Below, in pieces: positions 27,243-61,749 of a DNA stretch of 64,000 bases. How positions within the stretch are numbered: the first letter of the stretch is position 1; each line of letters starts with the position of its first letter. Origin of the DNA: Minutocellus sp. GHC0000111 (taxonomy: Eukaryota); NCBI GenBank assembly GCA_977018835.1, contig OZ361261.1:930001-994000 (forward strand), in the 5' to 3' direction. The notes beneath the pieces were generated by a model. That model did not search any database, was not told the DNA's origin, and saw only the letters and a list, made by a program, of their open reading frames with translations. The translations under genes and the position numbers were made by a program.

Positions 27243-28637
27243 TCACTGCCATGAGACAGGCGTCGCCTTCTTCTTTTTCTTCTTCTTGTGATCGACGGCA
27301 ACACTTCTCCTGAAACTTGTTGAGTGCCTGGTCGTCGAGGTTTCTCTCTCGCTCCCGGATGCTGAGGGTTCCACCTTGGATGATTGAGCAAATCTCTTGA
27401 TTGCCTTGCGCTTCGAGCGACGTACAATCTGACTGACCTGAACCTCAATAGTTTCACAAAACAACTCCAGTGGTAGGTCCACTCGATCGGTGCCAAAGGG
27501 CTCGATGAGCTCGCTGCCCAGCACAATGATCATCATGATAATCAAGGAATCAAATCCAATCAATATTGGGAGAGCCCAACCCACGGTAGGGGCAAAGAAT
27601 ATCGGCGCCAGGATGAAATAAAAGTAAAATATCAAGTGATGCACACCATCGTACGTTGGAGGCAAGCCCGAGGCTCGGATGCGAATGGCATCTCCAATTG
27701 CTCCGCCCAAATTGGTAATTGCTCCATCGACCGCTCGAAACAGTTGCGAGTGAACCTTGTGGTTCGCATCGAACATCATTCCCTTCGGCCTCAGATGCAC
27801 CTCGATGAGGAGCTCACTCAGCATGTCAAGACAATAGTGTGGCTCCCATCCGTCATCTTCGTTGATATCATCCAACTCCTCTCGAGTCAAATATCCTCTG
27901 TCAATGAGCATCTCTCCAGCCTCGGCAGCATCTCCCAAACAATGCCCTCTCAAAAGTGCCTTGGTAGCGTAGGCCAACACGATGACAAATCTCGAAAAAC
28001 GACCGGCAAACTCTTCTCCTTCGTCCACCATCCAATAGTTGGCCATGCGCGTGGCATCCAACGACGTCGATATGATCTTCCCCCACGTACTCCGGCCCAT
28101 GGCCCAACGATCGTAGCATCTGTTGAACCGAAACACGAGTGCAAAGATGAACAGGATGCCAACCAGCCGGAACTTGCCCCCAGCTCCCTCCAACCATCCC
28201 AGCCACGTGTCGGCCCTGCCGCCGGGATCGGTGGCGGCGTTCTCGTGCAGCTCTTCGGCGAACGAGGCGCAGGCGCAGGACCACATGACAACAATGACCA
28301 GGGAGGAGAACAGGAAGATCTTTTGCCGGCGGAAGGATTTGATGACCCGGCGGAACAGCCTGCGGCGGAGGGAGGGCTTGCCCAGGACGTCGAGGGCGAC
28401 CTTGTCGTCCAGAACGCAGGCGACGGAGGCCTGGTGGAAGAGGAGGGGCGGAGAATCGCCTCCGTCTTCGGCATCTGCACTACGCGTACTGTCATTGGGA
28501 CTCATCATCATCTTGACAGCATCGTCGTCGTGTTCTTTCGGAGCGGGAGATCGAGGGTGTGTGTCGCCATTTGACGACGCCGTTGTGCTCATGTTACTGT
28601 CGGATGGCATGCGACCAGTGAGGACTGTAGAGGGCAT
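27243..28637 (-). CDS. Bestrophin-like (UPF0187/Bestrophin_2) anion channel
   Basis: LVFRFNRCYDRWAMGRSTWG, ELIEPFGTDRVDLPLE, several TM segments. Confidence 0.85.
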   Translation of the reverse strand: MPSTVLTGRMPSDSNMSTTASSNGDTHPRSPAPKEHDDDAVKMMMSPNDSTRSADAEDGGDSPPLLFHQASVACVLDDKVALDVLGKPSLRRRLFRRVIKSFRRQKIFLFSSLVIVVMWSCACASFAEELHENAATDPGGRADTWLGWLEGAGGKFRLVGILFIFALVFRFNRCYDRWAMGRSTWGKIISTSLDATRMANYWMVDEGEEFAGRFSRFVIVLAYATKALLRGHCLGDAAEAGEMLIDRGYLTREELDDINEDDGWEPHYCLDMLSELLIEVHLRPKGMMFDANHKVHSQLFRAVDGAITNLGGAIGDAIRIRASGLPPTYDGVHHLIFYFYFILAPIFFAPTVGWALPILIGFDSLIIMMIIVLGSELIEPFGTDRVDLPLELFCETIEVQVSQIVRRSKRKAIKRFAQSSKVEPSASGSERETSTTRHSTSFRRSVAVDHKKKKKKKATPVSWQ

Positions 28638-28951: not shown

Positions 28952-31900
28952 ATGGACGGAGACCGGTGGATCTGCCCGTCGTGCACCACGCGGAACAAGG
29001 ACACCAAGCTCCGCTGCGGCATATGCATGCGGTCGAGGCCCAAGGCCCTCCTGACCAAGGCGGCGGCGGCAACCAAAAAGTCGAGTAGCAGTGGTCCACC
29101 TAACGGTTCGAACGCAGGCGGTGCCGGTGGTCGTTCGCTCGGAGCCGCTTCAGCTGACGTGGTAGACCTCACAACGTCGCCTCATCAGACCGGCGGTGCG
29201 GGCAGCGGCCGTCGACCGAGTACCGAGTCGGCCCGAAGCAAAAAGCGGCGAAGGGAACGAGAGCAAGGGCGGGGGTCGGGAATCGGCAGCTCGTCGGTGC
29301 TCTCCTCGTCATCGTCGGCGTCGTCATCCGCATCACCGGCAACCTTGGGCGATAATGGCGTGTCGGTGATTTCCCGCAAGGAGAAGGGTATGGAAGCTAC
29401 GTCATCCAATAGCAATGCAAGCGGTGGAAGGAGTAGCAATGACGACCTACCAAAGCAGAGGCAAGATGTCTCTAAGAAGCAGAAGAAAGGCGGCAGTTCG
29501 AGTAGCAGCAGTAACGGTGCCAAGCGCTCGACTGCATCTATGCAGTCGACGTTGTTTGGCAAGATTGTCACCGGTATCCGTGAGAAGGATGCATCGACTT
29601 TGCCCACGACATCTCGAGCGTACGACAGGCCCAGCAATGACGACGCTACTGCCAAGAAGAATCGTCAAGAGGAGATGAACGCAAGTGATAGCGGGACATC
29701 TACAACTGCGGCTACCAACAACAGCGCTGGCACTGGCAATGTGTTCGTTGAGGGCAGATACCAAGCATTAAAGGCCAAGGCCGATCGCGTCATGAAGGAA
29801 ACATTTGGCATTTCATCTTTGCGGAATTTACAGCCCCAAGCTGTCGATGGTGCTCTCCGTGGGCAGTCTCAGATCATTGTGATGGCCACGGGCGGCGGAA
29901 AGTCCTTGTGCTACCAATTGCCAGCGGCGGTACTGCCCGGCGTAACGGTCGTGGTGTCACCTTTGATTGCGTTGATGCAGGATCAGGTCCAGGCGCTCAA
30001 TGCAAAGGGTATCCCGGCAGCTCTTTATTTCTCGGCCAATGGACAGAGGGAGAATACCGAGGTGCTGCAGCGTCTAGTTGGAAAGAGTGGCAGTAAGAAG
30101 GGCGATAAGAAGAAGCGGGCTGGTAGCACAGGTGGTAATGACGCCGGCCTACCGGCACCCAAACCGCTCAAGCTCATCTATTGCACCCCGGAATTGATTG
30201 AGACGGACAAATTTCGCGCAGTCCTTACGGACCTCTACAAGAGAAGGGAATTGGCTCTGTTTGCAGTCGATGAGGCGCACTGTCTATCCTCATGGGGTCA
30301 TGACTTCCGACCGGCTTTCCTCAAACTCACCTGGGTGCGTCAATCATTTCGAGACGTTCCCATTACGGCATGTACTGCCACCGCTACTCCGCGAGTCATT
30401 GCCGATATTCGTTCGATCCTTGACCTTCCCGATAAGATCGTTCCCTGCCATATGGGCTCCTTTAATAGGCAGAACATTACATATGAGGTTCGTTACAAGG
30501 ACAATATCGACTCGACCAACCCAAGGGGGGCAATGGGAGATCTCACTTCTCTCATTAAGAACGAGCACGAGACTGCCAAGGCTACTGGTGTTCCGGCTTC
30601 TGGCATCGTATACGTGCACAAGCGTGCCGATGCATCTATGCTAGCCCAGCGCATTTGTAGGGAGTCAGGGGTTTCAGCGCGGCCGTATCATGCTGGCCTA
30701 AAAGATAAAGAGAGGAAAAGCATCCAAACACAGTGGACTTCAGGTGCCGTGCAAGTTGTGTGGTGAGTGCTGCATTGTATTTGAATCTTTCACTGCAAAT
30801 GTGCTGGCAGAATAAATTGCTCATCGTGTATGAATCTCTTCAAATCCTATACTTTATTTCTTTTCCAAAAATGCAGCGCAACTATCGCATTCGGTAAGTG
30901 GAAAGGAAATGTTTGGCTAGTGAATTGTTTCCCTTTGTCTTCGGATTTGTCGGTGGCGCTTGTTTCTAACCACTTGATTCATAATTCATTTCATCCTTTA
31001 TCTCCCAAAAGGAATGGGAATTGATTTGGCACATGTCCGATACGTGATACACTGGAGCATGGCCAAAACAGTCGAGGGCTTTTCCCAAGAATCGGGCCGA
31101 GGAGGTCGCGATGGCAATCCAGCTCAATCCATTCTCTACTATTCGAAGGACGATGCCGGACTGTTTGCCTTTATCATCAAGAAGAATGCTGAGGGCAAGG
31201 CTGCCCAGAAAAAGAAGCAGGCGCAAGATGATCGGGCTTTGGCAGAGCTTCAGAAGATGGTGGACTATTGTACCACCGCTTGCTGCCGACGCAAATACCT
31301 ATTGGCTCATTTCGGTGAGAAAATTGATCCAAAGGCGGTCTGTAAAAGGACTTGTGATTTTTGCATCAATCCTCAAAAGACGGAAAGGGCCATCCTAAGC
31401 TCACAGGTTTCGCGGGATGTTGCTAAGATGGTCCAGCGAAGCTCCGGCTCTTTCAAAAAGACACAGGAGTGGGATGGCCAGTGGTCCAAACCGCACGGCG
31501 ATAGTGACGATGAATACGGCAGTGATATTGATGCAGATTTTGATGGCGAATCGAGCCTCGGCATCAAGCGATCTAGAGATATTCTCAAGCCGGAGGCGCC
31601 AAGGCAGAATGTCAAAGCCATCTGCCGCGAAAGGCTTCGGTGGTTTTGTGAAGGCTTCGAGCGTCTTGGATAAGTACGAAAAGATGGAAATGAAGGCGGG
31701 AGGAAAGTCTGGTGGAGGAGGATTCATAAATTTTCGTGCTCGGGACTCTGCGCCAGCTCAGGTACCCGCGCACATGAGGACGAATGCCCCAGATCCTTTG
31801 AGCCATTACAACAAGCCCAAAGCAAAAGCTACTGAAGGAAGTGCAGCAACAAAGTCAAGAATTGAACAGCTAAAGGCTGAGCTTGCCGCTGAGGACGCTG

Positions 31901-31953
31901 AATTGGAAAAGAGACGTGCAAAATTATTCGGTGCTGGTAACAAGAAGAAATAA
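28952..31953 (+). CDS. RecQ-family DNA helicase with an N-terminal RanBP2-type zinc finger
   Basis: WICPSCT..CGIC; MATGGGKSLCYQ, VDEAHCLSSWGHDFRP, TATAT, QESGRGGRDG, RQC Zn motif CRR..CDFC; introns 30763-30876 and 30894-31011; frameshift near 31620. Confidence 0.92.
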
Positions 31954-32015
31954 AAGCATGTAGGAAAGTGAAGGGTGCACAGTATCCTATTTTTACTGTA
32001 AGAAATTTGAGCTAG

Positions 32016-34400
32016 CTAGTTGTTAGTATTTTGAGACAATTTTCTTGCCCACTTGACAGCATCAACAAATGATTGAACTGCTTTTTCAGGAGAAGAAATT
32101 TCTCCGCCGCCCTTGATCCAATTGGATACAACATCAGCCGGGCTTTTTCTGCCATTGATTTTGTTTTCAACGATGCGATGCTCAACTATCTTTCCTCTTC
32201 GATCGACTTTGTAGACTGATCTTAATTCCAACTCCAAGGGGAAACCAAGGGGTGACTGTCCTTGTTCGTCATTATTGGGACCTCTTCGTCTCGGCGATAG
32301 AGATGGTAATAATGAAGGCCCTTCAATTCTCAAGGCAAGTTTGATATCGACTTGAATTGAGCCGTTTGAGAGCAATTCTATTCTTGGCACAATATCCTTG
32401 ACCGATCGAACACTACCAGTGCGAAGAGCGGTTCGAAGGGACCCTATCGACGCTGTGAGTGCTTGGCCATATGCCTTTGTGCCGCGCGCGAGTGTTTCGT
32501 AAAGAAGACCAAGGAGCTCTACTTCTTCGCTCAAAAATTGTTTGGCAGGAGTTAGTGCTGGTGCCGTTGCATCGACCAGAGAGGGGAGCTCTGAGTGAAG
32601 AGTTCGCATAATATTGTAAATTGCCGCCGCAGCTGTAACATCCAGATCTGGTGGTACTTGTTGCGCATTTTTCTTCAGTGCCGGGTCTGCTTGGCCAGTA
32701 GACCTGCTGCCAGCTCGTCCACGAGAGATCCGTTTGAGCACGTCGCCCAATATTTCTCCTCCGGCACCTCCTCGCGAACTTTCAACCGCAGAGATTATCG
32801 ATTGAATCCATACCGCGTCGATAATCTTGTTTCCTCCAACAATCAATTCTTTTTGAATAATATCTCTTATCTCGCCATTTTAATTTAAGTAAAAGACGTC
32901 GGTGCCTTCAACTCTGATTTGAACAGTAGATAACCACCTGACAGTGGCAGTTAGGTTCCCCCAATCAACGGAGATGTCGGCTATTCGCCAAGCATCCGCA
33001 GGGTCGCTTGAAAGCCCGGCATTTTGACGCAATCCCGAGGCAGCTCTGTAGAGGTCAGCCACCCTGCCACTGCCTGATACAAGAGTTGTGCCATCGAACG
33101 CCTTTAATTCGACATCAGACGCAAAGAAATCCCGGAATGATTTGCCATTTGGAATGGGAAAAATCGCTGGATCAATTTCCGCCGCGAGATATGGAATCGT
33201 AGTTTTGACGAACGATTGTAAATGACCATGTGCCAACTCATAGGGTTTCCACTCTTTGCCTCCGGGCAGTGGGTATTGATAATCGAATGAATCTGTCACA
33301 TTCTGGGGGGCAACGTCATTGACCTTCCAGCTAGAACTCGTCTTCCAAATCGTTTCATTGGTTTGCTGCGGGGGCGGAATATCTGCCACGAGCACTGGAA
33401 TTTCTCCTTTTTGTTTCTTTTTCGAGCCCCCATCGCTATCTCGCTCTTCTTGCACATTCTGCCTTTGTCTACTACCATTCGCAGCACTGGCAAGCTCAGC
33501 GAGATTGGTCAATAATGGAGCCGCGGCTTCAGCTGCCTCCAGAACCCAAGGTGAACGCTCGGTAACGCTCCTAACAGTCTCTCTCAACGACGCCAATCGA
33601 GGCCCGATGGCATCGACACTTCTGCCATCTATCTCCACGTGCAATATTTGGTGCTTGGATATCAAACCATCCGCATTGAATGTGAAAACAGACGATCCAA
33701 CTATCTTGGAATGACGCCTTGACGATGACGGATCCTCTCGTCGACTGCGCCTCCTTGTCGCAGAGGAGTCTGGAAGTGCACCAGTCACCGAAACTGGCAG
33801 CGTCGTTGTCCACTTGACATGAAGGACGGACAGCGATGAATCCAGCGTCAGCTCGCAATCCACAAGGTCCATGTCCAGGCCTTGATCGCCAGCATTCTCA
33901 ACTGCGCCCGATGTAGCAGCCGCGAGAAATTGCCCAGCTCTTCGTGCAGTGCCGATGGTAGTTGCAATAGCCTGACTCACAGACATGATTTCTTCTCTGT
34001 CGCTGCCCAATACCTCGCCCTTGGGTCCGATGAGAGCACAGTCCTTGGCGTAGGTTTGCTTGGCCTCGTCGGCCTTGATTGGAACGGTGAGCGTGCGAGG
34101 CAGCTGATGCCGCAGATTGTTGAGGGTGCTATGCACGGCCGATCGGTATGCAAAGTCCTTCTCGGACATGAGACCTGGTATAGAAGAGGCTTCTACTGCG
34201 TCAGCGGCGACATCGTTGGAAGTAACAGCAGACGCACACAAGATGCTTCGCCGGCCGCAATGAGAGGTGGCGGAGGTGGGGGCGGCGACTGCGCTCGGCT
34301 GCTTTGGCTCTCTGGATGTATGTGAGAAGCAGAGCGCCGAGCCCACAAGTATCAGAATAAGTGCGAGGTGCGTAAGCATCGCGTGTGCCGGGTAAGTCAT
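32016..34400 (-). CDS. Hypothetical signal-peptide (probably plastid) protein with NTF2/SnoaL-like repeats
   Basis: Signal peptide ending ALC-FS; repeated 'G.SVF.FN.DG.I..H.I'-like segments; two ORFs joined by a frameshift near 32860. Confidence 0.5.
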
Positions 34401-49915: not shown

Positions 49916-50411
49916 GAGAGATCTGATGGCGTAGGAGGCAGGCAAGTGAAATTGAATGATTGTAGTGGAAGCGGGGTCGGGTAGCCGTCACGCTGGTGCC
50001 GGAAGCAATTCAAAAGTGCGCCATGGCGCCATGAGTTGCTTTCGGCCGACTTCGCCGAACTCCCAAGCAATCGAACTCCGCAGCTGAGCAGAAGCAGGCG
50101 GCGGCGGCGGCGGAACTCCTCTCTTTTTCCAGAGAAGGTTGTAACTTACTTGCTGACCCTCTTCTCCAATGGTACCCGATCGTTCAGACCGCAGCAAGGC
50201 GAGATAAGAGATAGGATAGATAGAGAGAAAAAGGACAAACGCCTTAGAAAAAATTTACTCTAAAATAAAAATACAAGACGTGCCACTCCATCCATAATAA
50301 TCTACATGTAAAAAATTTCTTCATTTCGAACTTTGATTTTGATATGTTGTTGTTGTTTGTTTTCACCAACATTGCTCTAATCTTTGTACATTCTGTCCGT
50401 CTCTTCTCTTT

Positions 50412-51914
50412 TCATCTATTCCCTGCTGGTAAGCAGTCACCACCGTCACATTTGCAAGATATACTGTTGTAACCAAATGCGTCGCAAGAACCGTCGCCAA
50501 TCCACTCCCGTCGATCTGCGTCGCAGTCGGGATATTCTTTCAACCAAGAGGAGCAAGACAGGTCACGCATCTTACAGTCAGGATACATTTCATTCCATGC
50601 ATCGCAGTCTCCAAAATCCCAAAGACACGCTTCTGTGTTGTAGTCGGCTCCATCACACTCGCCATCGCCAAGGAAGGCTGGGTCCTCGACCTGACACCCA
50701 GGATATGTGGCGTTGAAGGTTGCACAACTGTGATTGCCTCCCAAACAGTCCGGATATTTCCTATTGAAAACTCGGTTTTTCCTCTTGCAGTCACCCCCAT
50801 CATACTGACAGCGGATGTTATTGTAGCCCATGGCATCACATTCCCCGTCGGATAGCCACTCGGGATAGTGCACGACGCATCCAGGGAATGATTCATTGAA
50901 CGAGGCACAGGTGCCATCACCAATTCGACAGTCGGGATACTTTTCATTGAATCTTTTGCAGTCACCACCATCAAAGCCACAGCCAGCGTGGTTGAGAGGT
51001 CCATGGCAGAACCCATCCCCTACCATTTGTCCCATTTCCTCCACAGTAAAATAGCCGCTCCAAATCGGAGGGACTGTGCAGTTGGCGCAATCTCCCCCAT
51101 CGAGACCACACGAGGGTGCGAAATATGGATATCCATCACAAATGCCATCGCCGAGCTTGGCTGAGTCGGCTGGGTCAATGCTACAATTTGGGTAGCTATT
51201 AATGATGATGCAATCATTGTGATCCCATTGGCATTTCTCTGTATTGTACTCTCCTCCATCGCAGATTCCATTGCCCAGCTTCGATGGGTCTTCTACAATG
51301 CATTGCTCGACCAGGGCATCTTTGCTCCTCTTGCTTCCCAGGACACCGCCAACAATTGCACCCGCGATAACAGCAAGAAGCACAAATATCCCGATCTGGA
51401 CCTTGCGACTCTTGTAATTGACAACCACGTCGTCCAATTTCGATGCCTCCACAACGGATGCGTACTTGTCGCTGTCATCGGCTAACTCGGCGGCAACAGG
51501 GAGCTCATCCACCTCCATCATAACAGAGGGAACGGTAGGTGCATCTCGAGTGCCACCACATGCCTCCTCGGAGATGCCAGGAACATGAACAGCACCGGGC
51601 TTCTGAGTAATTTCTAGGGACGGGTGCTCATACTTTGTTTCGTTTTGACTAGAAGCGGCCGGCAATTTGACTTTCTTGTCAATATCCTTGGAAGTTACAT
51701 TAGCGCCACCGTCGTCATCAACGGACACTTTCTTCTCTTTGTAGTCATCGCCAATAGTCTTCACTTTCAGCGAGGCTTCCTTTCCTTCCACCCTCGCACA
51801 ACTTTCACGCTGGATCTTTTCACGAAGACGATCGGAGGGTTTCCTCGTCGGAGGCTTGTGTGAGTAGCTCTTCTCTTGAAGGGCCGAGGCGTCGACAGAA
51901 GTGCTTGTGCTCAT
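50412..51914 (-). CDS. Single-pass membrane protein with multiple LNR (Lin12/Notch) repeats
   Basis: Repeated GDG.CD...YN...C..DGGDC units after a TM helix. Confidence 0.85.
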   Translation of the reverse strand: MSTSTSVDASALQEKSYSHKPPTRKPSDRLREKIQRESCARVEGKEASLKVKTIGDDYKEKKVSVDDDGGANVTSKDIDKKVKLPAASSQNETKYEHPSLEITQKPGAVHVPGISEEACGGTRDAPTVPSVMMEVDELPVAAELADDSDKYASVVEASKLDDVVVNYKSRKVQIGIFVLLAVIAGAIVGGVLGSKRSKDALVEQCIVEDPSKLGNGICDGGEYNTEKCQWDHNDCIIINSYPNCSIDPADSAKLGDGICDGYPYFAPSCGLDGGDCANCTVPPIWSGYFTVEEMGQMVGDGFCHGPLNHAGCGFDGGDCKRFNEKYPDCRIGDGTCASFNESFPGCVVHYPEWLSDGECDAMGYNNIRCQYDGGDCKRKNRVFNRKYPDCLGGNHSCATFNATYPGCQVEDPAFLGDGECDGADYNTEACLWDFGDCDAWNEMYPDCKMRDLSCSSWLKEYPDCDADRREWIGDGSCDAFGYNSISCKCDGGDCLPAGNR

Positions 51915-52039
51915 TTTTTTTGTTCAATGCGGGAGTAATGGTTCAGGCTATTCTATTGTAATATGGCGTGTGCCATTCGGTTGAAGTAAATTACCAATAG
52001 GATAGACATGGCAAACGGTATGTATCTTCCAACAAAATC

Positions 52040-52659
52040 TTCGGAAGGAGTCGAGTCAGAACATCCCGAGGGCTTCTGTCAAGCAGGGCATCGAAGCGGG
52101 AATGATCCTGCTCAAGTATCCAGACAGTTCGGCTGCCAAGAAGCGAATAAAATCTGGGCCATATCCGATAGTCCTGCAGTTTTACAATTTGGCCGAGAAC
52201 AACGCAAAAAATACCGGGGAGGGGCAGCTATCGGCACAAGAGGCTCTGGAACTAGCTCAAGGTCAAAAGGCGGTTCCAACTCCAACAGAATCGGAATTGT
52301 ACGGCAATCGAGGGGCTGGTCTGGACATTAAGACAATCCAAAAGGCTCCTGCTTCTTGCACTACAAAGTCGAAAAAGGGAGATGTGTTGGAAGTCAAACA
52401 TGAAGCTCGTATCGGTGGACGAGGCGGCATAGTGTACGATTCGTCAGACGAATCTAGCAATGGCTTGTACAAATTGGGTAGGGGCGAAGTAATTGCTGGC
52501 GTGGATCTGGGCACAGTCGACATGTGCGTGGGGGAATTCCGGGAGATCGATGTTCCCTCCCCTTTGGCATGCGGAGCCAAGGGCAATCAGTTGCACCTAA
52601 TCCCTCCGGGATCGCGATTGTTTTGGCGGGTGGAATTGGTTGGCTTAGGGCGAGATTGA
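52040..52659 (+). pseudogene. FKBP-type PPIase fragment, 5'-truncated or degenerate
   Basis: SKKGDVLEV, LGRGEVIAGVDLG..DMCVGEFREIDVP, IPPGSRLFWRVEL; expected Tyr positions read H (VKHEAR) and C (LACG). Confidence 0.65.
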
Positions 52660-53087
52660 ATGCACATGTAGGATGGGGCGTGAATACTGAGTAGATCTAA
52701 TAGCACAAATTCAATTCACATACCGTATTACAAATCAGCAAAGAGTGCCGCTAGTAGGAGTCAGGTGGTCGTTGCTACAACAAAGACCAACGGTCAGCAA
52801 TTCACTTGCTGATGATGCGATGGCTTCAAAAGAGGGACACCTACACATGTATCTTGTGCCATGGATACTGTACATGTAGGCCATGCTTGTTCTAACCTAC
52901 TTTCTTCACTTCCCATCGCCTGAGCATGTCAACATGATAAAACGACTGTGCAGAGAAAATTGTTTGTGTATGTAGGCCATCTCACATGAGGCGGTTTTCA
53001 TCGTTTCCGGGTTACTTTGTAAACACGCCTCGTTTTGGCATGCTTATCATTTACCTAGCACTAGAGGTACCTAGGCCTAGGTACTGC

Positions 53088-55020
53088 ATGGCGGAGACAA
53101 CAATGGCACCTCTCACAGCATATCGTTCCTTGCTAGTTGCCCTGGCCTTCCTTTCGTCGAACTTGACGAGGGGAGCGAGCAGTGGTGGTAACGGCGACCA
53201 GCAAGAGACATGTGCTGCTTCATCAGGTAATGGCGGTGGTGCCAGCAATGACAATGTCGCTAGGCGTACCTCCAGATTGCCGCGTCAACCACCCTGCCGT
53301 CTTTACCTGGCAGAATCGACAGTTCCCGATGCTGGTCTTGGCGTATTTTCAGGAGTGGACATGCCTCGAGGGGCGCCGATTGGTCAACCGGACGTCATTA
53401 TACAACTGCCTGACCCGTCACCGGACCACGCCGATGGTCTATCTCTGCTTTTGAATGATTACCTCTGGGACGGCCAAGAGACGGGTGGACAGTACGAAGG
53501 AATAAAAACGATGTCGGTCATACCGGGGATTGGTATGGCCGCAAACGGCCACCTCCACCTTTACAACGCCCTTCCATTCCGGCCCGATGTGGACGAGTCA
53601 GCTGTTGCACGGACCAAGTCACCAGGTGCTGGGGCCTTCACGCACTACCACAATTACTCGTTTTTCAGTCAGAGGCCAATCGCATCCGGAGGTGAAGTCT
53701 TTGTAAATTACGGCTCGAATTGGTTCCGCGAGAGGGAGGGGCGCAAGATGATATCGCCCATTGACGATGACGCAAGTGATACAGCTGACAGGCACACCCG
53801 ATCAATCGAGTGGTTGCATGAGAATGGCATATGTTTGGACACTCTCCGGCCTGGCCAATCCAAGATCAAAGACGCTGGGAGAGGTGTCTTTGCTCGTCGA
53901 TTTCTACCCAAAAGACTCCATCGTGGCACCATCACTGGTAGTTCAGATTACCAATAGGGATGCGTTGCGAACTGTCCGTGTCAAGTCCGACGATAGCGTG
54001 GAGAAAGGGTGGCAGTTGCTATTGAATTACTGCTTTGGTCATCCACAATCGTCTGTTCTGCTCTTTCCATACGGCAACGGCGTCAATTTGATCAATCACG
54101 ATGCTGAAAATGCCAATGTGATTCTTCGTTGGTCCAATTCAACTCAACACAAAGGGAAGGAATGGCCTGAGAGCATGTCGGTTGATGAGCTCAAGAAAAC
54201 AAACACGTCTGGCCTCATGCTCGAATTTGTGGCGCTCAGAGATATTCATCCTGGCGAAGAAATATATTATGATTATGGAAGCAAGTGGGAGGAAGCCTGG
54301 AAAAGTCACAAACAGCTTTGGAAGCCGTGGTCTGGCGCTTCATCGTCCTACAGCCCATCCTACATCATGGACGATGTAGCCCAAAAGATCAGGACTCAAA
54401 AGGAGCAGAAAGAATATCCCTACGCAGACAACTTATTTACCTCTTGCTTCTATCGGTACTCCGATAACGCTGGTGCTGAAGGATCGATAAGCAACGCCGA
54501 CAAAGTAGAAACAACGGCGGTGAGATGGGAATTAAAGCGAGGTATCTTCGATCTTAGCAATCTTAGGCCATGCACAATTCTCAAACGTGACCAAACTTCT
54601 GATGGAAAGCACTACCTGTATACAGTCCTCATTCGCAACAGATATGGCCTTCGCGAAGAGGAGCGGATACCAAAGGGCGCAATGCATGTCGTCAACTTTG
54701 TCCCGAGACATGCGATCCGATTCAGCGACAAAATCTACACCACCGACGCTCATCTGCCAAATGCATTTCGTCAAGAGATTAGGCTGCCAGAAGGTGTATT
54801 TCCCGAAGCCTGGAAGGATTTGACCAGAACAATCAAGCTAGCAAAAGACACTGTCCTTATCGAACGACTTGCCCTCAGCCATGGCCTTGTCTTTCTCAAC
54901 CTTGAGAACGATGCTCGTATTGACCCATCCAGGGATCAGGAGAGCACCTCGCAATTGGCCACCAGATTCGGCTCGCTCTTTCCGAAGTTCGTGCTCGAGG
55001 CCTTCAGTGCATGCCTTTAG
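53088..55020 (+). CDS. Secreted tandem SET-like domain protein
   Basis: Signal peptide; AESTVPDAGLGVF, GEVFVNYG, QSKIKDAGRGVFA, LINHD, GEEIYYDYG; frameshift near 53910; residues after ..AWKDL (~54822) overlap the antisense SDR remnant. Confidence 0.75.
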
Positions 55021-55518
55021 AGCGGCCTTTGACATGTTACATGTCAAGTTGCCAGGAGGCATCGTAATTCCCTGCTTGCTGCCCGTGTTGACGATGAGAC
55101 CGGGCTTGCCAGACTCTTTCATCTTGGGAACAAAGGCGAGGCAGCCATGAATGGGCCCATGTGTGTTAACCCCCATCACCTTCTGAACGACTTCCATGTC
55201 AGACAGTGCTCCGCTACCCTGACCAATGCCAGCGTTGTTGAAGAGAAAGTTTCATTCTCCAGTCGCCGCAAAGACCTTCTCCGCGACGCCGACCATGGCC
55301 TTCTCGTCGGCAACGATGGCTTGGATCTTTTGAGATTCGTCGGTCGCTTTTTCCGAGACGAGATTTTCCGCCGCCTTCAGGTCGTCCTCATCGACATCCA
55401 CAAGGAAAACATGCATGCCCTTCGCGGCACACATCAGGGCTGCCGCCCTGCCGATCCCACTTGAGGCGCCCGTGATGCACGCCGTCGCGCCAGGCCTGAA
55501 GTGCTCGGAGGTGCTCAT
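54838..55518 (-). pseudogene. Short-chain dehydrogenase (SDR) pseudogene, hypermutated and apparently 3'-truncated
   Basis: TGASSGIG, FNNAGIG, IVNTGS; catalytic YxxxK reads CNMSK; in-frame TGA at 55254-55252; no Tyr in the ORF. Confidence 0.85.
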
Positions 55519-55761
55519 GTTGCGTTCTTCTTGGCCGGAGTGACGAAGCGAGATGCATGCGATGCTCGGGAAAATTCCAGAATTGGACGATCTGTCGTCG
55601 TCCGTCACAGCTTCGAAGCTCTCCGCTCTCGCCGCTCCGCGCGCTGTGTGATGGTCTCCATCTGACCCTGGACTGCTTTTACGGCGCCGTTTGCCTGTTG
55701 AGCGCACTTGTGACTGTTGCTTGCCTGCTAGCTAGTGCCTGGTCCACTGCTTCATGCAACG

Positions 55762-56307
55762 ATGACGACCCTCCGCCCCCTCCGAATGGACGACCTGTTC
55801 AAGTTCAACAACATCAATCTTGACGTGCTTGCGGAAACGTGCAACGTGCCCTTCTGCCTGCAGCACATCAGTCAATGGCCCGAGGCCTTTGCCGTGGCAG
55901 AGGCTCCCGATGGCTCTCTTGTGGGCCACATGCTTGGGAAAGCAGAGGGCATGGGCAAGCTTTGGCATGGCCACGTGAGTGCCGTCACAGTTGCACCGAC
56001 GTGCCGGCGGCTGGGGCTGGCGCGGACGCTCATGGAGGACCTGGACAAGCTGTCGACCGACGTGCATGATGCCCACTTTGTCGATCTCTTTGTTCGGGCC
56101 TCGAACGGCCTGGCGATTGGCATGTGCGAGAGTTTCGGCTGTGTCAAGTGTCGGAGAGTGTTGGGATGTCACTCAGGAGACGACGCAGAAGATGCGTGGG
56201 ACATGAGAAAGGCGTTGCCTCGAGACAAGAACAAGGAGTCCACGACGCCGCTGGACCATCCGATGCGGCCCGAGGATCTCGAGTGGCAGCAGCAAGCGCG
56301 AGGGTGA
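55762..56307 (+). pseudogene. NAA20: NatB catalytic subunit NAA20/NAT3, hypermutated copy
   Basis: DDLFKFNNINLD, WHGHVSAVTVAP.RRLGLA, FVDLFVRASN, EDAWDMRKAL; contains no Tyr, with conserved Tyr positions mostly reading C or H. Confidence 0.9.
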
Positions 56308-57228
56308 CGTGCCCAAACAGACTCACTCTGCATGTCACAGTTTGACTCAACTGCTCTGTTGTGTGACATCAACGGACATGTTGTTCCCCTCGTCGACGCA
56401 CTCCTCTCCATTGGGGCCGCAGAAAAGGTCTGGCTTGTCACCAGCTTCGTCCTCCCCAAAGCGTCGCACTTTGCTCCGACAATCGTTGCAAGTCAGAACC
56501 AGAACCCGACATCTGCAGCACCGAGCCTCCTTGTTGTCACGTGGTGCACGTCCATCGTCACAATCATCACGTGGCACACTGCAGAGAAGGCACTTCCCCG
56601 CACGTCCTGGCCCTGCTGCTGGGTCCGCTCGACGGGGATCAAAGACGAAGTTGCGACCCTTGCAGAGACACGCCTTGCTCCCCGTCGAGTCGCTCTCGGC
56701 AGTCGCACCCTCTTTGTTTTGGTCTTCGTTCATGCTCCCGCATGCTTCAAGACGTCTTTGAATGCCACCTTTCAGTTGACAAATTTCCACGGGCTTGTCG
56801 CCCTTCCATCGATCGGAGTCTGCCAGCGCCTGAAGACACGCCGACGCGCGCTCACACCGAACACCCCCAGCACAGCACGTGCAAACTTTTTTGCCGGCCA
56901 GTTTTTCGGATGTCGCATCGAGTGCTGCCGGCAGTGATGAGCACTTGCGAGTGTTGGGGAGCAACGCAGGCACACCAGGGACGGCAAAATGTCCCACTTT
57001 CGACTCGCACACACTCCTGGCGTCCAACAACGCTGCACCTCCTTCTCCTTCGTTTTGCAATTGCTGACTCCATTGCTCTGGGGACAAGTGATGAGCAGGG
57101 GGACATGCCGTCAAGTCAACGTCCTCTGGTGAAGTTGGAACCACCGATGATTGACTGGACTCCTCTCCATCACGTTGCTCTTGCTTTGAAAATTGATCTG
57201 ACCCAACTGCTTGTTCTTGAGCACTCTC

Positions 57229-57275
<47 letters not shown>

Positions 57276-57276
57276 G
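57229..57276. repeat. (TTG/CAA)n microsatellite encoding poly-Gln
   Basis: About 16 uninterrupted ttg units. Confidence 0.95.
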
Positions 57277-57467
57277 CTCCTTTTCCAATTGTCTCTGCCT
57301 CTGTCTCCACTTTCTTGCCTGGCGACCTCCTCGTCTGCCCTTTTTGTTTGCAGCAGGCTCATTCTTCGTTTCACAGAGCGAAACCACCTCACGTGTTTGT
57401 TTGACCGACAGACTGTTGAACAACTGCTGCTCTGCTGGAGCGTCCGGTCTCAGCTTGCAGCGCTTGA

Positions 57468-57764
57468 CGTCGAGGTCGAGCGACGCGTCACCATTGCCGC
57501 CAACACCGCCATTGTCCTCAACATTTGAATCTGCAAATGTTCTCGTCAACTCGTCATGCAGCCGCTCGTCGAGGTCGAGCGACGCGTCACCATTGCCGCC
57601 AACACCGCCATTGTCCTCAACATTTGAATCTGCAAATGTTCTCGTCAACTCGTCATGCAGCCGCTCGTCGAGGTCGAGCGACGCGTCACCATTGCCGCCA
57701 ACACCGCCATTGTCCTCAACATTTGAATCTGCAAATGTTCTCGTCAACTCGTCATGCAGCCGCT
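57468..57764. repeat. Perfect 99-bp tandem triplication (33 aa, in frame)
   Basis: Identical units at 57468, 57567 and 57666 encoding ERLHDELTRTFADSNVEDNGGVGGNGDASLDLD. Confidence 0.95.
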
Positions 57765-58103
57765 CCTCATGTTGATGCAAGTCGACTGTGCGACCGCTGA
57801 GCGCTCCGTTGACGCCCTCGCGTGACACTCGGACCCGACCGTGAAGAGAGAGGGGTGCGCAAAGACCATTTTGGCATTGGATGTGCTGAGAAAGCGACTC
57901 CTGAGGGAGAGGCCGAGGCGTGTAGAGGCAGCACAGAGCAATCTGGTGCTGCTGTTGGGAGAGTTCGTCGCTCATCATTGACTGCTTGCTGGGTTTGTGA
58001 GGGGCAGGGCGCCACTGGTTGTGGTTCCAATCCAACTCGACTCATAACCTATTGAACCTGCCGCTGCTGCCGTCATTTTTGCTGCTTCCGTTCGTTCGTG
58101 GCC

Positions 58104-60032
58104 ATGAGCCCCGCCAACAACCGCCGTGGGTCTGCAGTTCTATCTGCTGCAGCTGCCGCTGCAATCGTCGTGGGAGCCTCATCTTCTGCGTCGCCGCAGC
58201 CGCCGCCGTGCTCCTCCTCACGACCACTCGCCACCGCTGCCGCCACCTCCACGTCGTCATTGCCCCTCAACGCACCGTTTGGCCTGAGCCGCAGTGCCGT
58301 GGAATCGTTGCGTGGCGGCGAGACAGAGCCCTCAGCATCAGCATCAGCGGCCGGTGATGGTCCCAATGTTCGTGGTGGTGCCGTCGGCGAGAAGAAGTCA
58401 AACCGAAAGAAGAAGAAGAAAAGTCGAAAGAAGAGCAAACAGACAAAGGCGGACAGTGGTGAAGCAGATGCAGGTGCAAATACTAATCCTGCCGATACTT
58501 CGAATCAAACCGAAACAACAGAGAAGGAATCTAGGCCCGAAAATGACGAGAAGCCATCAGAAGATAATAGTCAGCAGCACCACCATCGCTCGACACATTC
58601 ACATGCACACAGCCACCACAAGCAAAAATCAAAGTCCGGCACTGCTACTAGTAGCAATTCACAGCAAGATGCCATCATTGCCAGCATTATGGGTGCATCG
58701 GACCATTATGAGGTGTTAGGTGTAACCAAATCAGCCACCGAGGTGGAAATTAAAAAAGCATACCGTCGACGAGCCGTTCGAACGCACCCAGACAAGCTAG
58801 CAAACTCCGATCGAACGGCATTTGACAAGGTGGCCAAAGCCTATGAGGTTTTATCGGACGAAACGAAACGCGGATTGTATGATCGGTTCGGTGATGAGGG
58901 AGTAGAGGCGGGAGGCAACCCCAATCCTGGCTTCGGTGGGTTTGGATCTGGCGGTATGTTTGGCGCTGCAAGCGCCGAGGAGGTATTCAGTCGATATTTC
59001 GGCGGCACCGGTGGAAGAGGGGTGCCCAACAGTTTCAATCCTTTCCAACCTCGCAACATGAACAAGAAGTTTGAGATGGAGGTGGACCTGGAAGATCTCT
59101 ACAATGGCATCACCCGCAAGGTCACCATGGCACAACCGCCAACAACTCCCAACGGACGTCGAACCAGAAAGACCGTCGAAGTTACGATACAGCGAGGAAT
59201 GATGGCTGGACAATCGATAGTACTGCCAGGAGAGATGGATCAAGTTCCCAATTCAGCTCCAGCTGATATAATTTTTGTCCTGGCACAGCGGCGTCACGAG
59301 ACATTTACTCGACGAGGTCATGATCTCGCGATTGTTGTGACCATATCGCTTCGGGAGGCTCTATGTGGCTTTCGACGAAGCTTCATTCATCTCGACGGTA
59401 GGACAGTGGTCATTGCTCCGCCTCGCGGTAGGAAGATTTATCAAGAGAAGAAGCAAAAACAGATCGAACCAAATGCAGATGAAGAGGGTGAGACTGGCGG
59501 TGACGATGAAGTGGAACAGATCCCTCACGCAGCACCGATTATCATACGCTCTGGAGATATTCATGTCTTGAAGGGAGAGGGCATGCCAAAGCCTGCAGGA
59601 ATGAACTCCAGGGGCGGTGGCTATGGAGACTTGTACGTGCAGTACAAGGTAGAAATGCCATCCGCGGCATCTGGTGCTGGTAACAGTCTCACAATTGAAG
59701 AGCGTGATGAACTGGATCGACTACTCCGCAAGCTTGAAGGAAGTACGCCCAACGGCATGCAAGGGACGGAACTTATGGCAGAGGAGATCGATGCAGATGG
59801 GAACAAAATTCGCTACATGCAGCGGGCATCAGCCGAAGACTTTGGCAAAGCAAGTGGGCCTTTTGAAACATATGACCACCACGGCGAGGAGCACTTGTAT
59901 GGCGATGACGAGGACCCAAGCAGCAACAGCTTCTTCCAAGCGTTTGGTGGTCGTGGCTTTCCAACATCTGGTTTCCACTATTACTCATCATCCTCTGGGC
60001 AGGGTGGCGATCAACAATGCCAACAGATGTAG
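58104..60032 (+). CDS. DnaJ/Hsp40 chaperone (J domain, G/F region, C-terminal domain, no Zn finger)
   Basis: DHYEVLGV, EIKKAYR, HPDK, AYEVLSD, LEDLYNG, ISLREALCGF, KGEGMP, terminal CQQM CaaX-like motif. Confidence 0.92.
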   Translation: MSPANNRRGSAVLSAAAAAAIVVGASSSASPQPPPCSSSRPLATAAATSTSSLPLNAPFGLSRSAVESLRGGETEPSASASAAGDGPNVRGGAVGEKKSNRKKKKKSRKKSKQTKADSGEADAGANTNPADTSNQTETTEKESRPENDEKPSEDNSQQHHHRSTHSHAHSHHKQKSKSGTATSSNSQQDAIIASIMGASDHYEVLGVTKSATEVEIKKAYRRRAVRTHPDKLANSDRTAFDKVAKAYEVLSDETKRGLYDRFGDEGVEAGGNPNPGFGGFGSGGMFGAASAEEVFSRYFGGTGGRGVPNSFNPFQPRNMNKKFEMEVDLEDLYNGITRKVTMAQPPTTPNGRRTRKTVEVTIQRGMMAGQSIVLPGEMDQVPNSAPADIIFVLAQRRHETFTRRGHDLAIVVTISLREALCGFRRSFIHLDGRTVVIAPPRGRKIYQEKKQKQIEPNADEEGETGGDDEVEQIPHAAPIIIRSGDIHVLKGEGMPKPAGMNSRGGGYGDLYVQYKVEMPSAASGAGNSLTIEERDELDRLLRKLEGSTPNGMQGTELMAEEIDADGNKIRYMQRASAEDFGKASGPFETYDHHGEEHLYGDDEDPSSNSFFQAFGGRGFPTSGFHYYSSSSGQGGDQQCQQM

Positions 60033-60082
60033 CTTGCTAGTCTAGTAGTAGAACGTATTATTTATGATTAGATAGTTGAGAC

Positions 60083-61405
60083 TCACAGATCTAAACCTTG
60101 GATGGCATCACTAATCAGCATGCGAGCGGCCTCCTGGACAAAAGGTCTGCCCTTTTCGCTCATTTTCTTGCCCGCATTTGTCTTCGACCACGCCACAAGT
60201 ACAAAATGGCCTGTTGGCAAGCAGTGCAGATGCTCAGAAGATTCCAATAAATCACACAAATCACTCGATAAGAATATAATGTCTGACGAACCTCCACTTT
60301 CATCGTCTTGCATGATATTTCGTCGGCTTTTGCTGATGTAGCTTGAAACCATCTCCCTTCGTGGCCTCCGGCATAGACACCGGACACTGCAGCCTTTCAT
60401 TCCCTTTCGACAGTCCACAAACACTTTTGTCCATCCCAATGCATCCAGTGATTTCGACATGGTCAGAGTCTCGTCATTTTTTCCTGATCGGGTCCCAGAA
60501 GAGAGAAAATGCTTTGGTTGATCACATGCCTTGGTCTGAAACACCAGCGCTTCAATATCTCCAATGGCCCACCTATCCGACATGTCGCCTTCCACCAAAT
60601 AATGCGGTGAGTCGGAAAATTTATTAATCATCCCGGCAGTGGCTGTGGGAACTTGGGCGTCCGTGCCGAAGGCATTGATGAACGATATGCGTCTCCGAAA
60701 CATTGCCAATGGGCGAAGGTACTCATCCTTTGTTGCCATTGCATAGATCAAATCGTTGGCCTCGCTCTTGGTTTTGCTCTTCCTGCCCCCCAAACACGAC
60801 CACTTTCTACCCTTGCGACGATCAACTCTAAATAGATCCCTCCCCGTTTTGCCAAATAGAAAAGCAAAAATGTATTCCATGCAGCTCGGTAATATGAAAT
60901 ATGTGTGTGCAGCGATCCCAAGATGGGGGGTGGCTGCAGTACAAAAGTCCATTGGGTGCAGAATAACTTTTGTAGAACCAACATCAAACTCAAACGGCAT
61001 AACCGACAAAGCGAATCGGCTGTACATTCCGCCGAGGCTGTATCCAAAGAATGAGATCGAAGCATGATATTCGGCACTATTGGATTGTTGCGCGACCTTT
61101 ATTCTTCCCTTGACGTAGGCGCTTATAACATCTTGCACTTCTTTGGCCAATCGAGACCCACCAGCTGCAATGCCATCGAACGTCGACGTATTGTTGCATT
61201 TCACTCGATGGATAATTGCCTCCAGATGAGCATTGTCTTCCCTCTCGGCTAGCTCCTCAGACGCCTCATTCAATGCTTCCTCGAGAAACGATAGCTCCTC
61301 GTGGTTGCCCATGAATCCATGAATGAGAAAGATGAAATGTGACTCCATTCTGGGGTGGTGATGGGGTGAGTGACATAATGGCATTGTCAATTTATCGTAT
61401 TGCAA
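60083..61405 (-). CDS. DUF676 putative serine esterase/lipase (paralog of 47546-49915)
   Basis: FLIHGFMG, DGIAAGGSRLA, GYSLGGMYSRFA, TAATPHLG, NAFGTDAQVP. Confidence 0.85.
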   Translation of the reverse strand: MQYDKLTMPLCHSPHHHPRMESHFIFLIHGFMGNHEELSFLEEALNEASEELAEREDNAHLEAIIHRVKCNNTSTFDGIAAGGSRLAKEVQDVISAYVKGRIKVAQQSNSAEYHASISFFGYSLGGMYSRFALSVMPFEFDVGSTKVILHPMDFCTAATPHLGIAAHTYFILPSCMEYIFAFLFGKTGRDLFRVDRRKGRKWSCLGGRKSKTKSEANDLIYAMATKDEYLRPLAMFRRRISFINAFGTDAQVPTATAGMINKFSDSPHYLVEGDMSDRWAIGDIEALVFQTKACDQPKHFLSSGTRSGKNDETLTMSKSLDALGWTKVFVDCRKGMKGCSVRCLCRRPRREMVSSYISKSRRNIMQDDESGGSSDIIFLSSDLCDLLESSEHLHCLPTGHFVLVAWSKTNAGKKMSEKGRPFVQEAARMLISDAIQGLDL

Positions 61406-61749
61406 AGAGTGAGCGTTCTAATTTTACATGAGGAATTGCCGAAAGGCGAAACACATACAAATGAGAAGCGTCATAATGGCATTGTTGCCTACTTGCCTAC
61501 TTTGATCTTCCGCCAGGTCGCCGGTCGCCGGCCGTGTGCCGCCGTTGATTTTGGCCGGTTTCGACCACACATCATGTGCTTCTTACGAAAGAGACACGAG
61601 ACACAACCACAGATCTTATGAAGCTTCATCAAGTCCAGAAGATAAAACGGCTGCTGGCCTGTTGCTGCCCGCTTCCTATCCTCCCACCACAAGCATGATC
61701 TACAGCGGCAACATCGATAATAAGCACATATCTACGAGGCAATAAAGAT

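What the first reader, a model, noticed from the sequence alone, without database searches (positions are those of the whole stretch)
54845..57950. TpA-erasing hypermutated island: candidate 'reverse-RIP' A:T->G:C mutation system
Seen in the sequence: my manual scan finds no TA dinucleotide from ~55736 to 57922 (~2.2 kb of coding and intergenic DNA) and very few from 54845 to 55735. The flanking SET and DnaJ genes have ordinary TA and Tyr content. Three recognisable genes have lost almost all Tyr, which now read TGY (Cys), CAY (His) or CGY (Arg). So TpA became TpG or CpA, i.e. A->G at TpA on both strands, sometimes at both positions. Established: fungal RIP does the opposite (C->T, creating TpA); TadA-type adenine deaminases and Pol eta both favour A->G in TA/WA contexts. 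Inference: a regional, near-saturating, homology- or chromatin-directed mutator inactivates duplicated DNA. I know of no formally described system like this in diatoms, but could not check the literature.
Basis: partly seen in the sequence, partly recalled or inferred. Interest (0 to 1): 0.95.

Follow-up and report, generated by a model that had tools for sequence, protein, structure and literature searches.

The report
One-allele TpA hypermutation in diatom genes
In a diatom-like alga, one of the two chromosome copies of three ordinary genes has lost every TA letter pair over 2.2 kb through A-to-G and T-to-C changes while the other copy is intact, likely the work of a locally targeted DNA-editing (adenine deaminase) process that I found reported only for viral DNA in a distantly related alga.

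Summary
No TA lies between 55733 and 57923; about 72 are expected. Contigs of three studies carry these letters, two of them Illumina. In one DNA-like sample the mutated and an intact allele each have about half of normal depth, so this is one allele of a single-copy locus, not a duplicate. 107 of 121 allelic differences are A:T>G:C on the window's side, split evenly between strands. In NAA20, 24 of 24 TA steps of the intact allele are gone. NAA20 lost 11/11 tyrosines, TSTD2 17/18 and SDR 4/4. New detail: ApT is a second target (28/111 vs 8/425 other sites), while other AA sites are spared, which fits a TadA/ADAT-like deaminase better than Pol eta. The same TpA>TpG/CpA process is described in Bigelowiella natans viral insertions (bioRxiv 10.64898/2026.01.13.699255); my ten searches found no diatom report. 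This scan noted the signature before in other diatom-like genomes (unchecked notes). Here it hit host genes with no transposon in view. Enzyme and trigger are inferred. Verdict: new variant of a known kind.

The parts
55734..57922 (.). TA-free core of the hypermutated allele
   Evidence: No TA between 55733 and 57923; same letters in contigs of X1, X3, X4, X7, X8
54843..58082 (.). Heterozygous block holding the whole island, between two tracts that look homozygous in sample X3
   Evidence: X3 contigs 54153-54842 (depth 167, 1 difference) and 58083-61210 (depth 172, 0 differences); inside, allele pairs at about 75-90 depth each
55762..56307 (+). NAA20 (NatB catalytic subunit), mutated allele: 11 of 11 Tyr lost; stop TAG and the next TAA read CAG and CAA, giving a 6-residue extension
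56347..57975 (-). TSTD2/UPF0176-rhodanese, mutated allele and epicentre: 17 of 18 Tyr lost, ApT also hit (18/51 conserved sites), frame runs 4 residues past the end of most homologues
54844..55518 (-). Short-chain dehydrogenase, partly mutated edge: 4 of 4 Tyr lost including the Tyr of the YxxxK motif (motif recalled), a nonsense codon at 55252-55254, a 9-base deletion, last 82 codons missing
54843..54844 (.). Deletion junction joining the 3' end of the SET-domain gene to the inside of the convergent SDR gene; left edge of the island
   Evidence: 310-aa homologues align only to residue 228 at 54844; junction crossed by contigs of X1 and X8, X3 contig ends at 54842
55605..55744 (.). Divergent intergenic stretch between the SDR and NAA20 starts; differs from the other allele and keeps 3 TA (55680, 55729, 55733)
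   Evidence: joints
57468..57765 (.). Three identical 99-base copies in TSTD2, each with the same three amino-acid changes; the other allele has one copy
   Evidence: (joint skipping 198 at half depth)
57229..57276 (-). (CAA)16 polyglutamine run, longer than in homologues
53089..54840 (+). SET-domain gene, unmutated left flank (control)
58107..60032 (+). DnaJ gene, unmutated right flank (control)

Best explanation
One chromosome copy of a three-gene block in a diploid diatom-like alga carries saturating A:T>G:C mutation at TpA on both strands, with weaker mutation at ApT, most likely made by a TadA/ADAT-type adenine deaminase that is inferred to have been drawn in cis to this allele over many cell divisions by the same genome-defence process reported for viral DNA in Bigelowiella natans. 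SHOWN: the spectrum, strand symmetry, saturation, restriction to one allele, and a gradient (TSTD2 > NAA20 > SDR). INFERRED: the intact homologue keeps the cell viable, so the dead allele persists and gathers a deletion, a nonsense codon and repeat expansions, while mitotic recombination may have trimmed its flanks to homozygosity. INFERRED and weakest: the trigger was a local chromatin or RNA mark, such as read-through between these tightly packed convergent genes, not a second copy.
For: 107/121 differences in X3 and X4, 130/158 in X15 and 138/171 in X14 are window G/C against other A/T; 52 C vs 55 G in X3, so no strand bias. In 55782-56330, 24/24 TA steps of the other allele are changed (25/48 strand-sites), ApT 6/57, rest 4/148. 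Protein-based sites in TSTD2+NAA20: TA 45/74 strand-sites, ApT 28/111, rest 8/425, p=3e-14 for ApT; with conserved codons only, AAT/GAT 7/44 vs 6/333, p=2e-4. The order 5' T far above others, with a 3' T boost, matches passages on TadA8.20 (5' U 5-10 fold, 3' U a further 1.5-2 fold; PMC12027372; engineered enzyme, on RNA). Outgroup proteins polarise the changes onto the window allele: 55 of 81 sites are supported by 5 of 5 outgroups. Allelic depth sums to diploid depth. Identical TpA>TpG/CpA signature measured de novo in a single-copy region of B. natans. Mitotic recombination and loss of heterozygosity are frequent in diatoms (abstract of 10.1101/2020.11.08.373134); small RNAs target methylated protein-coding genes in a diatom (abstract of PMC4247016).
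Against: No enzyme was found or searched for: no genome is held. The B. natans preprint itself has only a candidate ADAT2. There the de novo changes fall only on TpA and on silent viral DNA; here ApT is also hit, the genes are host genes, and the mutated allele appears in RNA-library contigs, so it may not be silenced. No transposon or viral sequence was recognised in or beside the island. Mutation is weakest at the deletion junction (7 of 11 other-allele TA lost by transition, 3 kept, 1 differs by a transversion) and strongest 1.5-3 kb away, which speaks against the junction as the trigger. Only 40 of 197 difference rows were shown, and the ApT estimate for TSTD2 rests on protein comparison, not DNA. 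Phase across the block is not shown by any single contig.
Confidence: 0.62

Rival explanations
1. Same kind of mutator, but triggered by homology or by a transposon/viral insert that once lay here and was later deleted (RIP-like, with leakage into neighbouring genes).
For: A deletion junction marks the left edge and a replaced 138-base stretch lies inside; B. natans TpA-depleted sequences are enriched in transposon and viral domains; unchecked scan notes report the signature in diatom transposons and their neighbours.
Against: Depth shows no extra copy today; no element remnant recognised; mutation is weakest next to the junction; the 99-bp repeats carry identical changes.
Confidence: 0.17
2. 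A modified base marks the region (for example 6-methyladenine, or a modified thymine) and its deamination or miscoding gives A:T>G:C at TA and AT.
For: Both targets are A/T palindromes; ApT is the site of eukaryotic 6mA (search listing).
Against: TA, not AT, is the saturated target; the diatom Phaeodactylum was found to carry 5mC only (passage of PMC12695648). This species was not tested.
Confidence: 0.09
3. An error-prone polymerase (Pol eta or iota type) copied the block during repeated repair or break-induced replication.
For: The block is bounded by a deletion and homozygous tracts and holds tandem expansions. Pol eta favours WA>WG (recalled).
Against: AAA 0/30, AAC 2/35, AAG 1/43 against complete loss of TA; almost no other substitution types; both strands equal; saturation is hard to reach by copying errors.
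Confidence: 0.06
4. Double-stranded RNA from the convergent genes was hyper-edited and copied back into the chromosome.
For: The genes are convergent, appear intronless, and the mutated allele is in RNA-library contigs.
Against: One cDNA carries edits of one strand only, yet both are equal; ADAR favours a 3' G (recalled), which is the least-hit neighbour here (TAG 1/6 in DNA rows).
Confidence: 0.04
5. Sequencing, base-calling or assembly artefact.
For: Modified bases can cause A/G miscalls in long reads (recalled); the window's platform is unknown.
Against: Zero-difference contigs of 1.4-1.8 kb in Illumina runs X7 and X8 of two other studies, and both alleles side by side in X3 and X4; the exact mutated NAA20 protein is on 8 contigs.
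Confidence: 0.01

Closest known systems
TpA-specific hypermutation of integrated NCLDV and virophage DNA in Bigelowiella natans (Mettrop et al., bioRxiv 10.64898/2026.01.13.699255; parts 1-4 of 5 of the main text read, supplements not available)
   Same: A:T>G:C transitions at TpA on both strands (TpG or CpA), confined to a region, in single-copy DNA, no second copy needed.
   Different: Different lineage (diatom-like stramenopile vs Rhizaria); host housekeeping genes, not viral DNA; one allele of a diploid; complete saturation over 2.2 kb (their NCLDV region keeps Rho 0.45); a second ApT target; 3 kb vs 25-186 kb; present in RNA-library contigs.
Fungal repeat-induced point mutation (RIP) and its leakage into single-copy genes (recalled; listings)
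   Same: Regional, both-strand, dinucleotide-specific transition mutagenesis that kills genes.
   Different: Opposite direction (C>T, creates TpA), needs duplicated DNA and a RID methyltransferase-like protein; here no duplicate is seen.
TadA/ADAT adenosine deaminases and TadA-derived base editors (PMC12027372, passages read)
   Same: A>G with strong 5' T/U preference and a 3' U boost.
   Different: The cited preference is for an engineered enzyme on RNA; no natural diatom enzyme acting on DNA is shown.
AID/APOBEC clustered hypermutation (recalled)
   Same: Enzyme-like, context-specific, clustered mutation used in defence.
   Different: Acts on C, is strand-coordinated and does not saturate both strands.

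Membership tests
B. natans-type TpA hypermutation | Nearly all changes are A:T>G:C transitions | tested here: met
   107/121 in X3 and X4, 5 in the reverse direction
B. natans-type TpA hypermutation | Target is TpA on both strands | tested here: met
   24/24 TA steps changed in 55782-56330; 52 vs 55 by strand
B. natans-type TpA hypermutation | Changes fall only on TpA | tested here: not met
   ApT 28/111 vs 8/425 other sites; may show only after saturation, which the preprint's short experiment would not reach
B. natans-type TpA hypermutation | Region-limited, single-copy target | tested here: met
   sharp island; diploid total depth
B. natans-type TpA hypermutation | Target is foreign (viral or transposon) DNA | tested here: not met
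   three host genes with diatom orthologues; SET-NAA20-TSTD2 order conserved in L001
B. natans-type TpA hypermutation | About 1000-fold raised de novo rate, on in some lines only | not testable with these tools
   needs mutation-accumulation lines
B. natans-type TpA hypermutation | Same enzyme (candidate ADAT2/3) | not testable with these tools
   no genome held; enzyme unproven in B. natans too
RIP | C:G>T:A transitions creating TpA | tested here: not met
   opposite direction
RIP | Triggered by a duplicate | tested here: inconclusive
   no extra copy by depth in one sample; a lost or much diverged copy is not excluded
Pol eta WA signature | A>G at AA as well as TA | tested here: not met
   AAA/AAC/AAG 3/108
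ADAR-type RNA editing | Changes in RNA only, on one strand | tested here: not met
   both alleles in evenly deep DNA-like runs X3 and X4 (library not on record), both strands hit

The most novel reading that the evidence does not exclude
Diatoms and chlorarachniophytes share an ancient adenine-deaminase genome-defence pathway, the mirror image of RIP, that is steered by chromatin or aberrant transcription rather than by foreignness or homology; it can lock onto a single allele of ordinary host genes, erase every TpA (tyrosine codons and TAA/TAG stops with it), then move on to ApT, and so creates hemizygous, still-transcribed dead alleles that persist in natural populations.
Probability: 0.4. 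Interest if true: 0.9.

Novelty: new variant of a known kind. Interest (0 to 1): 0.72.

Why it matters
Targeted A-to-G hypermutation of chromosomal DNA has one description that I could find, a 2026 preprint on viral inserts in a chlorarachniophyte. This locus extends it to a diatom-like stramenopile and to host genes, and it comes with an ideal control, the intact allele in the same sample. It yields a context ranking (5' T far above C, A, G; 3' T above C above purines) that can be used to pick the enzyme. If the enzyme is a natural DNA adenine deaminase, it matters for genome defence, for GC-content evolution in algae, for gene annotation (Tyr-free pseudo-alleles with open frames) and as a source of base-editing enzymes.

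Tried and rejected
No whole genome is held, so no genome-wide TpA scan and no search for deaminases or polymerases. A scan of JGI metagenomes with the intact NAA20 gave 11 loci, none closer than 85% protein identity and none TA-depleted (TA O/E 0.68-1.0), so no full-length intact DNA allele was obtained; DNA context rests on the 40 of 197 rows shown and 24 rows in 54919-55285. Exact look-ups of the window's DnaJ, TSTD2 and SDR frames found 0 of 6. Among proteins of 160 aa or more fetched up to (261, NAA20 and TSTD2 hits), only the window's own had zero Tyr; the next lowest had 7. The intact allele is not listed in the core for RNA-like runs X1, X7 and X8, but contigs show presence, not absence, so this is not used as evidence of allele-specific expression or homozygosity. 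The idea that SDR is a foreign insert that drew the mutator was dropped: it has diatom orthologues and is the least mutated gene, though it is absent between SET and NAA20 in L001. The idea that the 99-bp repeat is the trigger was dropped. Other short TA gaps in the window (25471-25868, 28114-28481) lie in open frames that still hold Tyr or TA and were not pursued. Literature: ten searches; those aimed at TpA or A-to-G hypermutation in diatoms or algae listed no diatom report, but only the top 20 of 73 and of 566 papers were listed, the library lacks most subscription papers, and the preprint's supplements could not be seen.
Full report
Observation. The window has no TA dinucleotide between 55733 and 57923 (2190 bases); the next longest gap is 465 and lies in the same island. 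About 72 TA are expected at flank density, and block-bootstrapped flanks never gave a gap above 607 in 200 trials. In the core TG and CA are raised (O/E 1.45 and 1.38 vs 1.15 and 1.16), AT is lowered (0.75 vs 1.11), and CG is unchanged. Pfam and homologue searches name the genes as an SDR (minus strand), NAA20 (plus) and TSTD2/UPF0176 (minus), between a SET-domain gene and a DnaJ gene. The nearest named homologues are centric diatoms (Ditylum and Helicotheca at 75% for NAA20; Odontella at 64% for SDR), so the organism is likely a centric diatom; no genome is held.

It is real DNA and it is one allele. Of 24 runs listed, 12 hold half or more of the words; I laid 7 of them. Contigs of Illumina runs X7 (55446-57220) and X8 (55782-57220), from two studies other than that of X1-X4, match the core with 0 differences. 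Runs X3 and X4 (one sample, library not on record, even depth across 14 kb in X3) hold both versions as paired contigs: for example 86.9 and 77.4 depth at 56096-56434, summing to about 165, against 167 and 172 in the flanking tracts 54153-54842 and 58083-61210, where a single contig carries full depth. So the locus is single-copy and heterozygous. Runs X15 and X14 show the intact letters only. X1-X4 may include the window's source and are not independent support.

Spectrum. Over 55290-57200, 107 of 121 differences in X3 are window C or G against other T or A (52 and 55, so no strand bias), 5 are the reverse transitions and 9 are transversions; X15 gives 130 of 158 and X14 138 of 171. Of the 40 rows shown (157 not shown), 36 are A:T>G:C and 26 of these lie in TpA; in 55782-56330 all 24 TA steps of the other allele are changed, one on both strands. 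All 20 amino-acid differences of NAA20 from its closest intact homologue are explained by A:T>G:C changes, and 11 of 11 Tyr are lost; the stop TAG reads CAG. TSTD2 has lost 17 of 18 Tyr; 56 of 66 differences are single A:T>G:C steps, 4 need two steps, 3 are G:C>A:T and 3 are transversions. SDR has lost 4 of 4 Tyr in the part that remains. Outgroup proteins put the changes on the window allele (55 of 81 sites backed by 5 of 5 outgroups).

A second target. Among non-TA adenines, those followed by T are hit far more often: 28/111 against 8/425 from protein-inferred sites (p=3e-14) and 6/57 against 4/148 from DNA rows (p=0.03). Some CAT sites could hide a TA through an unseen synonymous change, but AAT and GAT at conserved codons alone give 7/44 against 6/333 (p=2e-4). 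AAA, AAC and AAG are hit 3/108 times, which does not fit the WA signature recalled for Pol eta. Among TA strands the 3' neighbour gives T 9/15, C 12/20, A 3/7, G 1/6 (small numbers). Passages of PMC12027372 report for TadA8.20 on RNA a 5- to 10-fold preference for 5' U and a further boost from 3' U, but also high editing of UAG in some assays; the resemblance is a lead, not a test.

Shape of the island. Intensity falls from TSTD2 (TA complete, ApT 18/51) through NAA20 (TA complete, ApT 1/29; p=0.001) to the 3' half of SDR (7 of 11 other-allele TA lost by transition, ApT 0/39). TA survives in both divergent intergenic stretches (55680-55733; 58045, 58050) and at the 18th codon of TSTD2. The allele carries further damage: a deletion at 54843/54844 that removes the last 82 codons of SDR and lets the SET frame run into SDR antisense (junction crossed by X1 and X8 contigs), a nonsense codon and 9-base deletion in SDR, a longer polyglutamine run and a 99-base triplication whose three copies are identical and share three amino-acid changes, so it most likely postdates the mutation. 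These lesions are read from the window; their phase is not shown by a single contig. No transposon or long repeat was recognised, and the order SET-NAA20-TSTD2 is conserved in a relative (L001).

Mechanism. Shown: region-limited, both-strand, saturating A:T>G:C change on one allele. Inferred: a TadA/ADAT-type enzyme deaminates A to inosine in DNA; the palindromic TA gives TG, CA or, with two hits, CG; weaker sites appear after saturation; the intact homologue shelters the dead allele; frequent mitotic recombination in diatoms (abstract) could explain the homozygous flanks. The trigger is the open point. A cis chromatin or RNA mark is my best guess, since diatom small RNAs target methylated protein-coding genes (abstract) and the genes here are tightly convergent. 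A since-deleted element is the main rival; the weak mutation next to the junction counts against the junction as origin in either version.

Comparison and novelty. Mettrop et al. (bioRxiv 10.64898/2026.01.13.699255; parts 1-4 of 5 read) measured TpA>TpG/CpA hypermutation at about 6e-7 per site per generation in two viral inserts of Bigelowiella natans, one confirmed single-copy, and proposed an ADAT2 homologue without testing it. The text has no mention of diatoms or stramenopiles. This locus works like that process but fails two of its reported features (foreign target; TpA only), so I file it as a new variant, not a member. My searches listed no diatom report (limits under Tried and rejected). 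Four unchecked notes of this scan report the same signature in other diatom-like genomes, in transposons and in host alleles beside them; I found the preprint and the allele evidence before reading them and did not test their claims. None exists for this genome or this sequence, and none matched an ApT query.

Verdict. Observation confirmed; interpretation partly supported. That this is a real, targeted A:T>G:C hypermutation of one allele is about 97% likely; the deaminase-with-cis-trigger account about 62%. Interest 0.72.

Noticed in passing
window 53910 and 53261: The SET-domain gene is split over two frames; X3 and X7 contigs lack one base at 53910 that the window and X8 have, so the window seems to carry a frameshifted allele.
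   Followed up: partly
window 55446-57220: RNA-library runs X7 and X8 and the unevenly deep run X1 assemble the mutated allele as one clean contig and list no intact letters there; could mean higher RNA level of the TA-free allele or homozygosity, but contigs cannot show this.
   Followed up: no
window 52726-52930 and 61387-61473: Short intergenic stretches with very high depth and many loose ends (thousands-fold in X3): dispersed small repeats flanking the region at 2-3.5 kb.
   Followed up: no
window 50000-52530 and 54919-55215: Alleles in X3 differ by about 7-10% in places (35 differences in 358 bases at 52173-52530) next to fully homozygous tracts, as in a hybrid with loss-of-heterozygosity patches.
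   Followed up: partly
window 55530-55744: The SDR-NAA20 intergenic stretch differs in length and sequence among alleles (joints in X3, X4, X14, X15).
   Followed up: partly
L001:1774-2262: A relative has SET next to NAA20 and TSTD2 with no SDR between them, followed by genes that match window 30164-32219 in reverse.
   Followed up: partly
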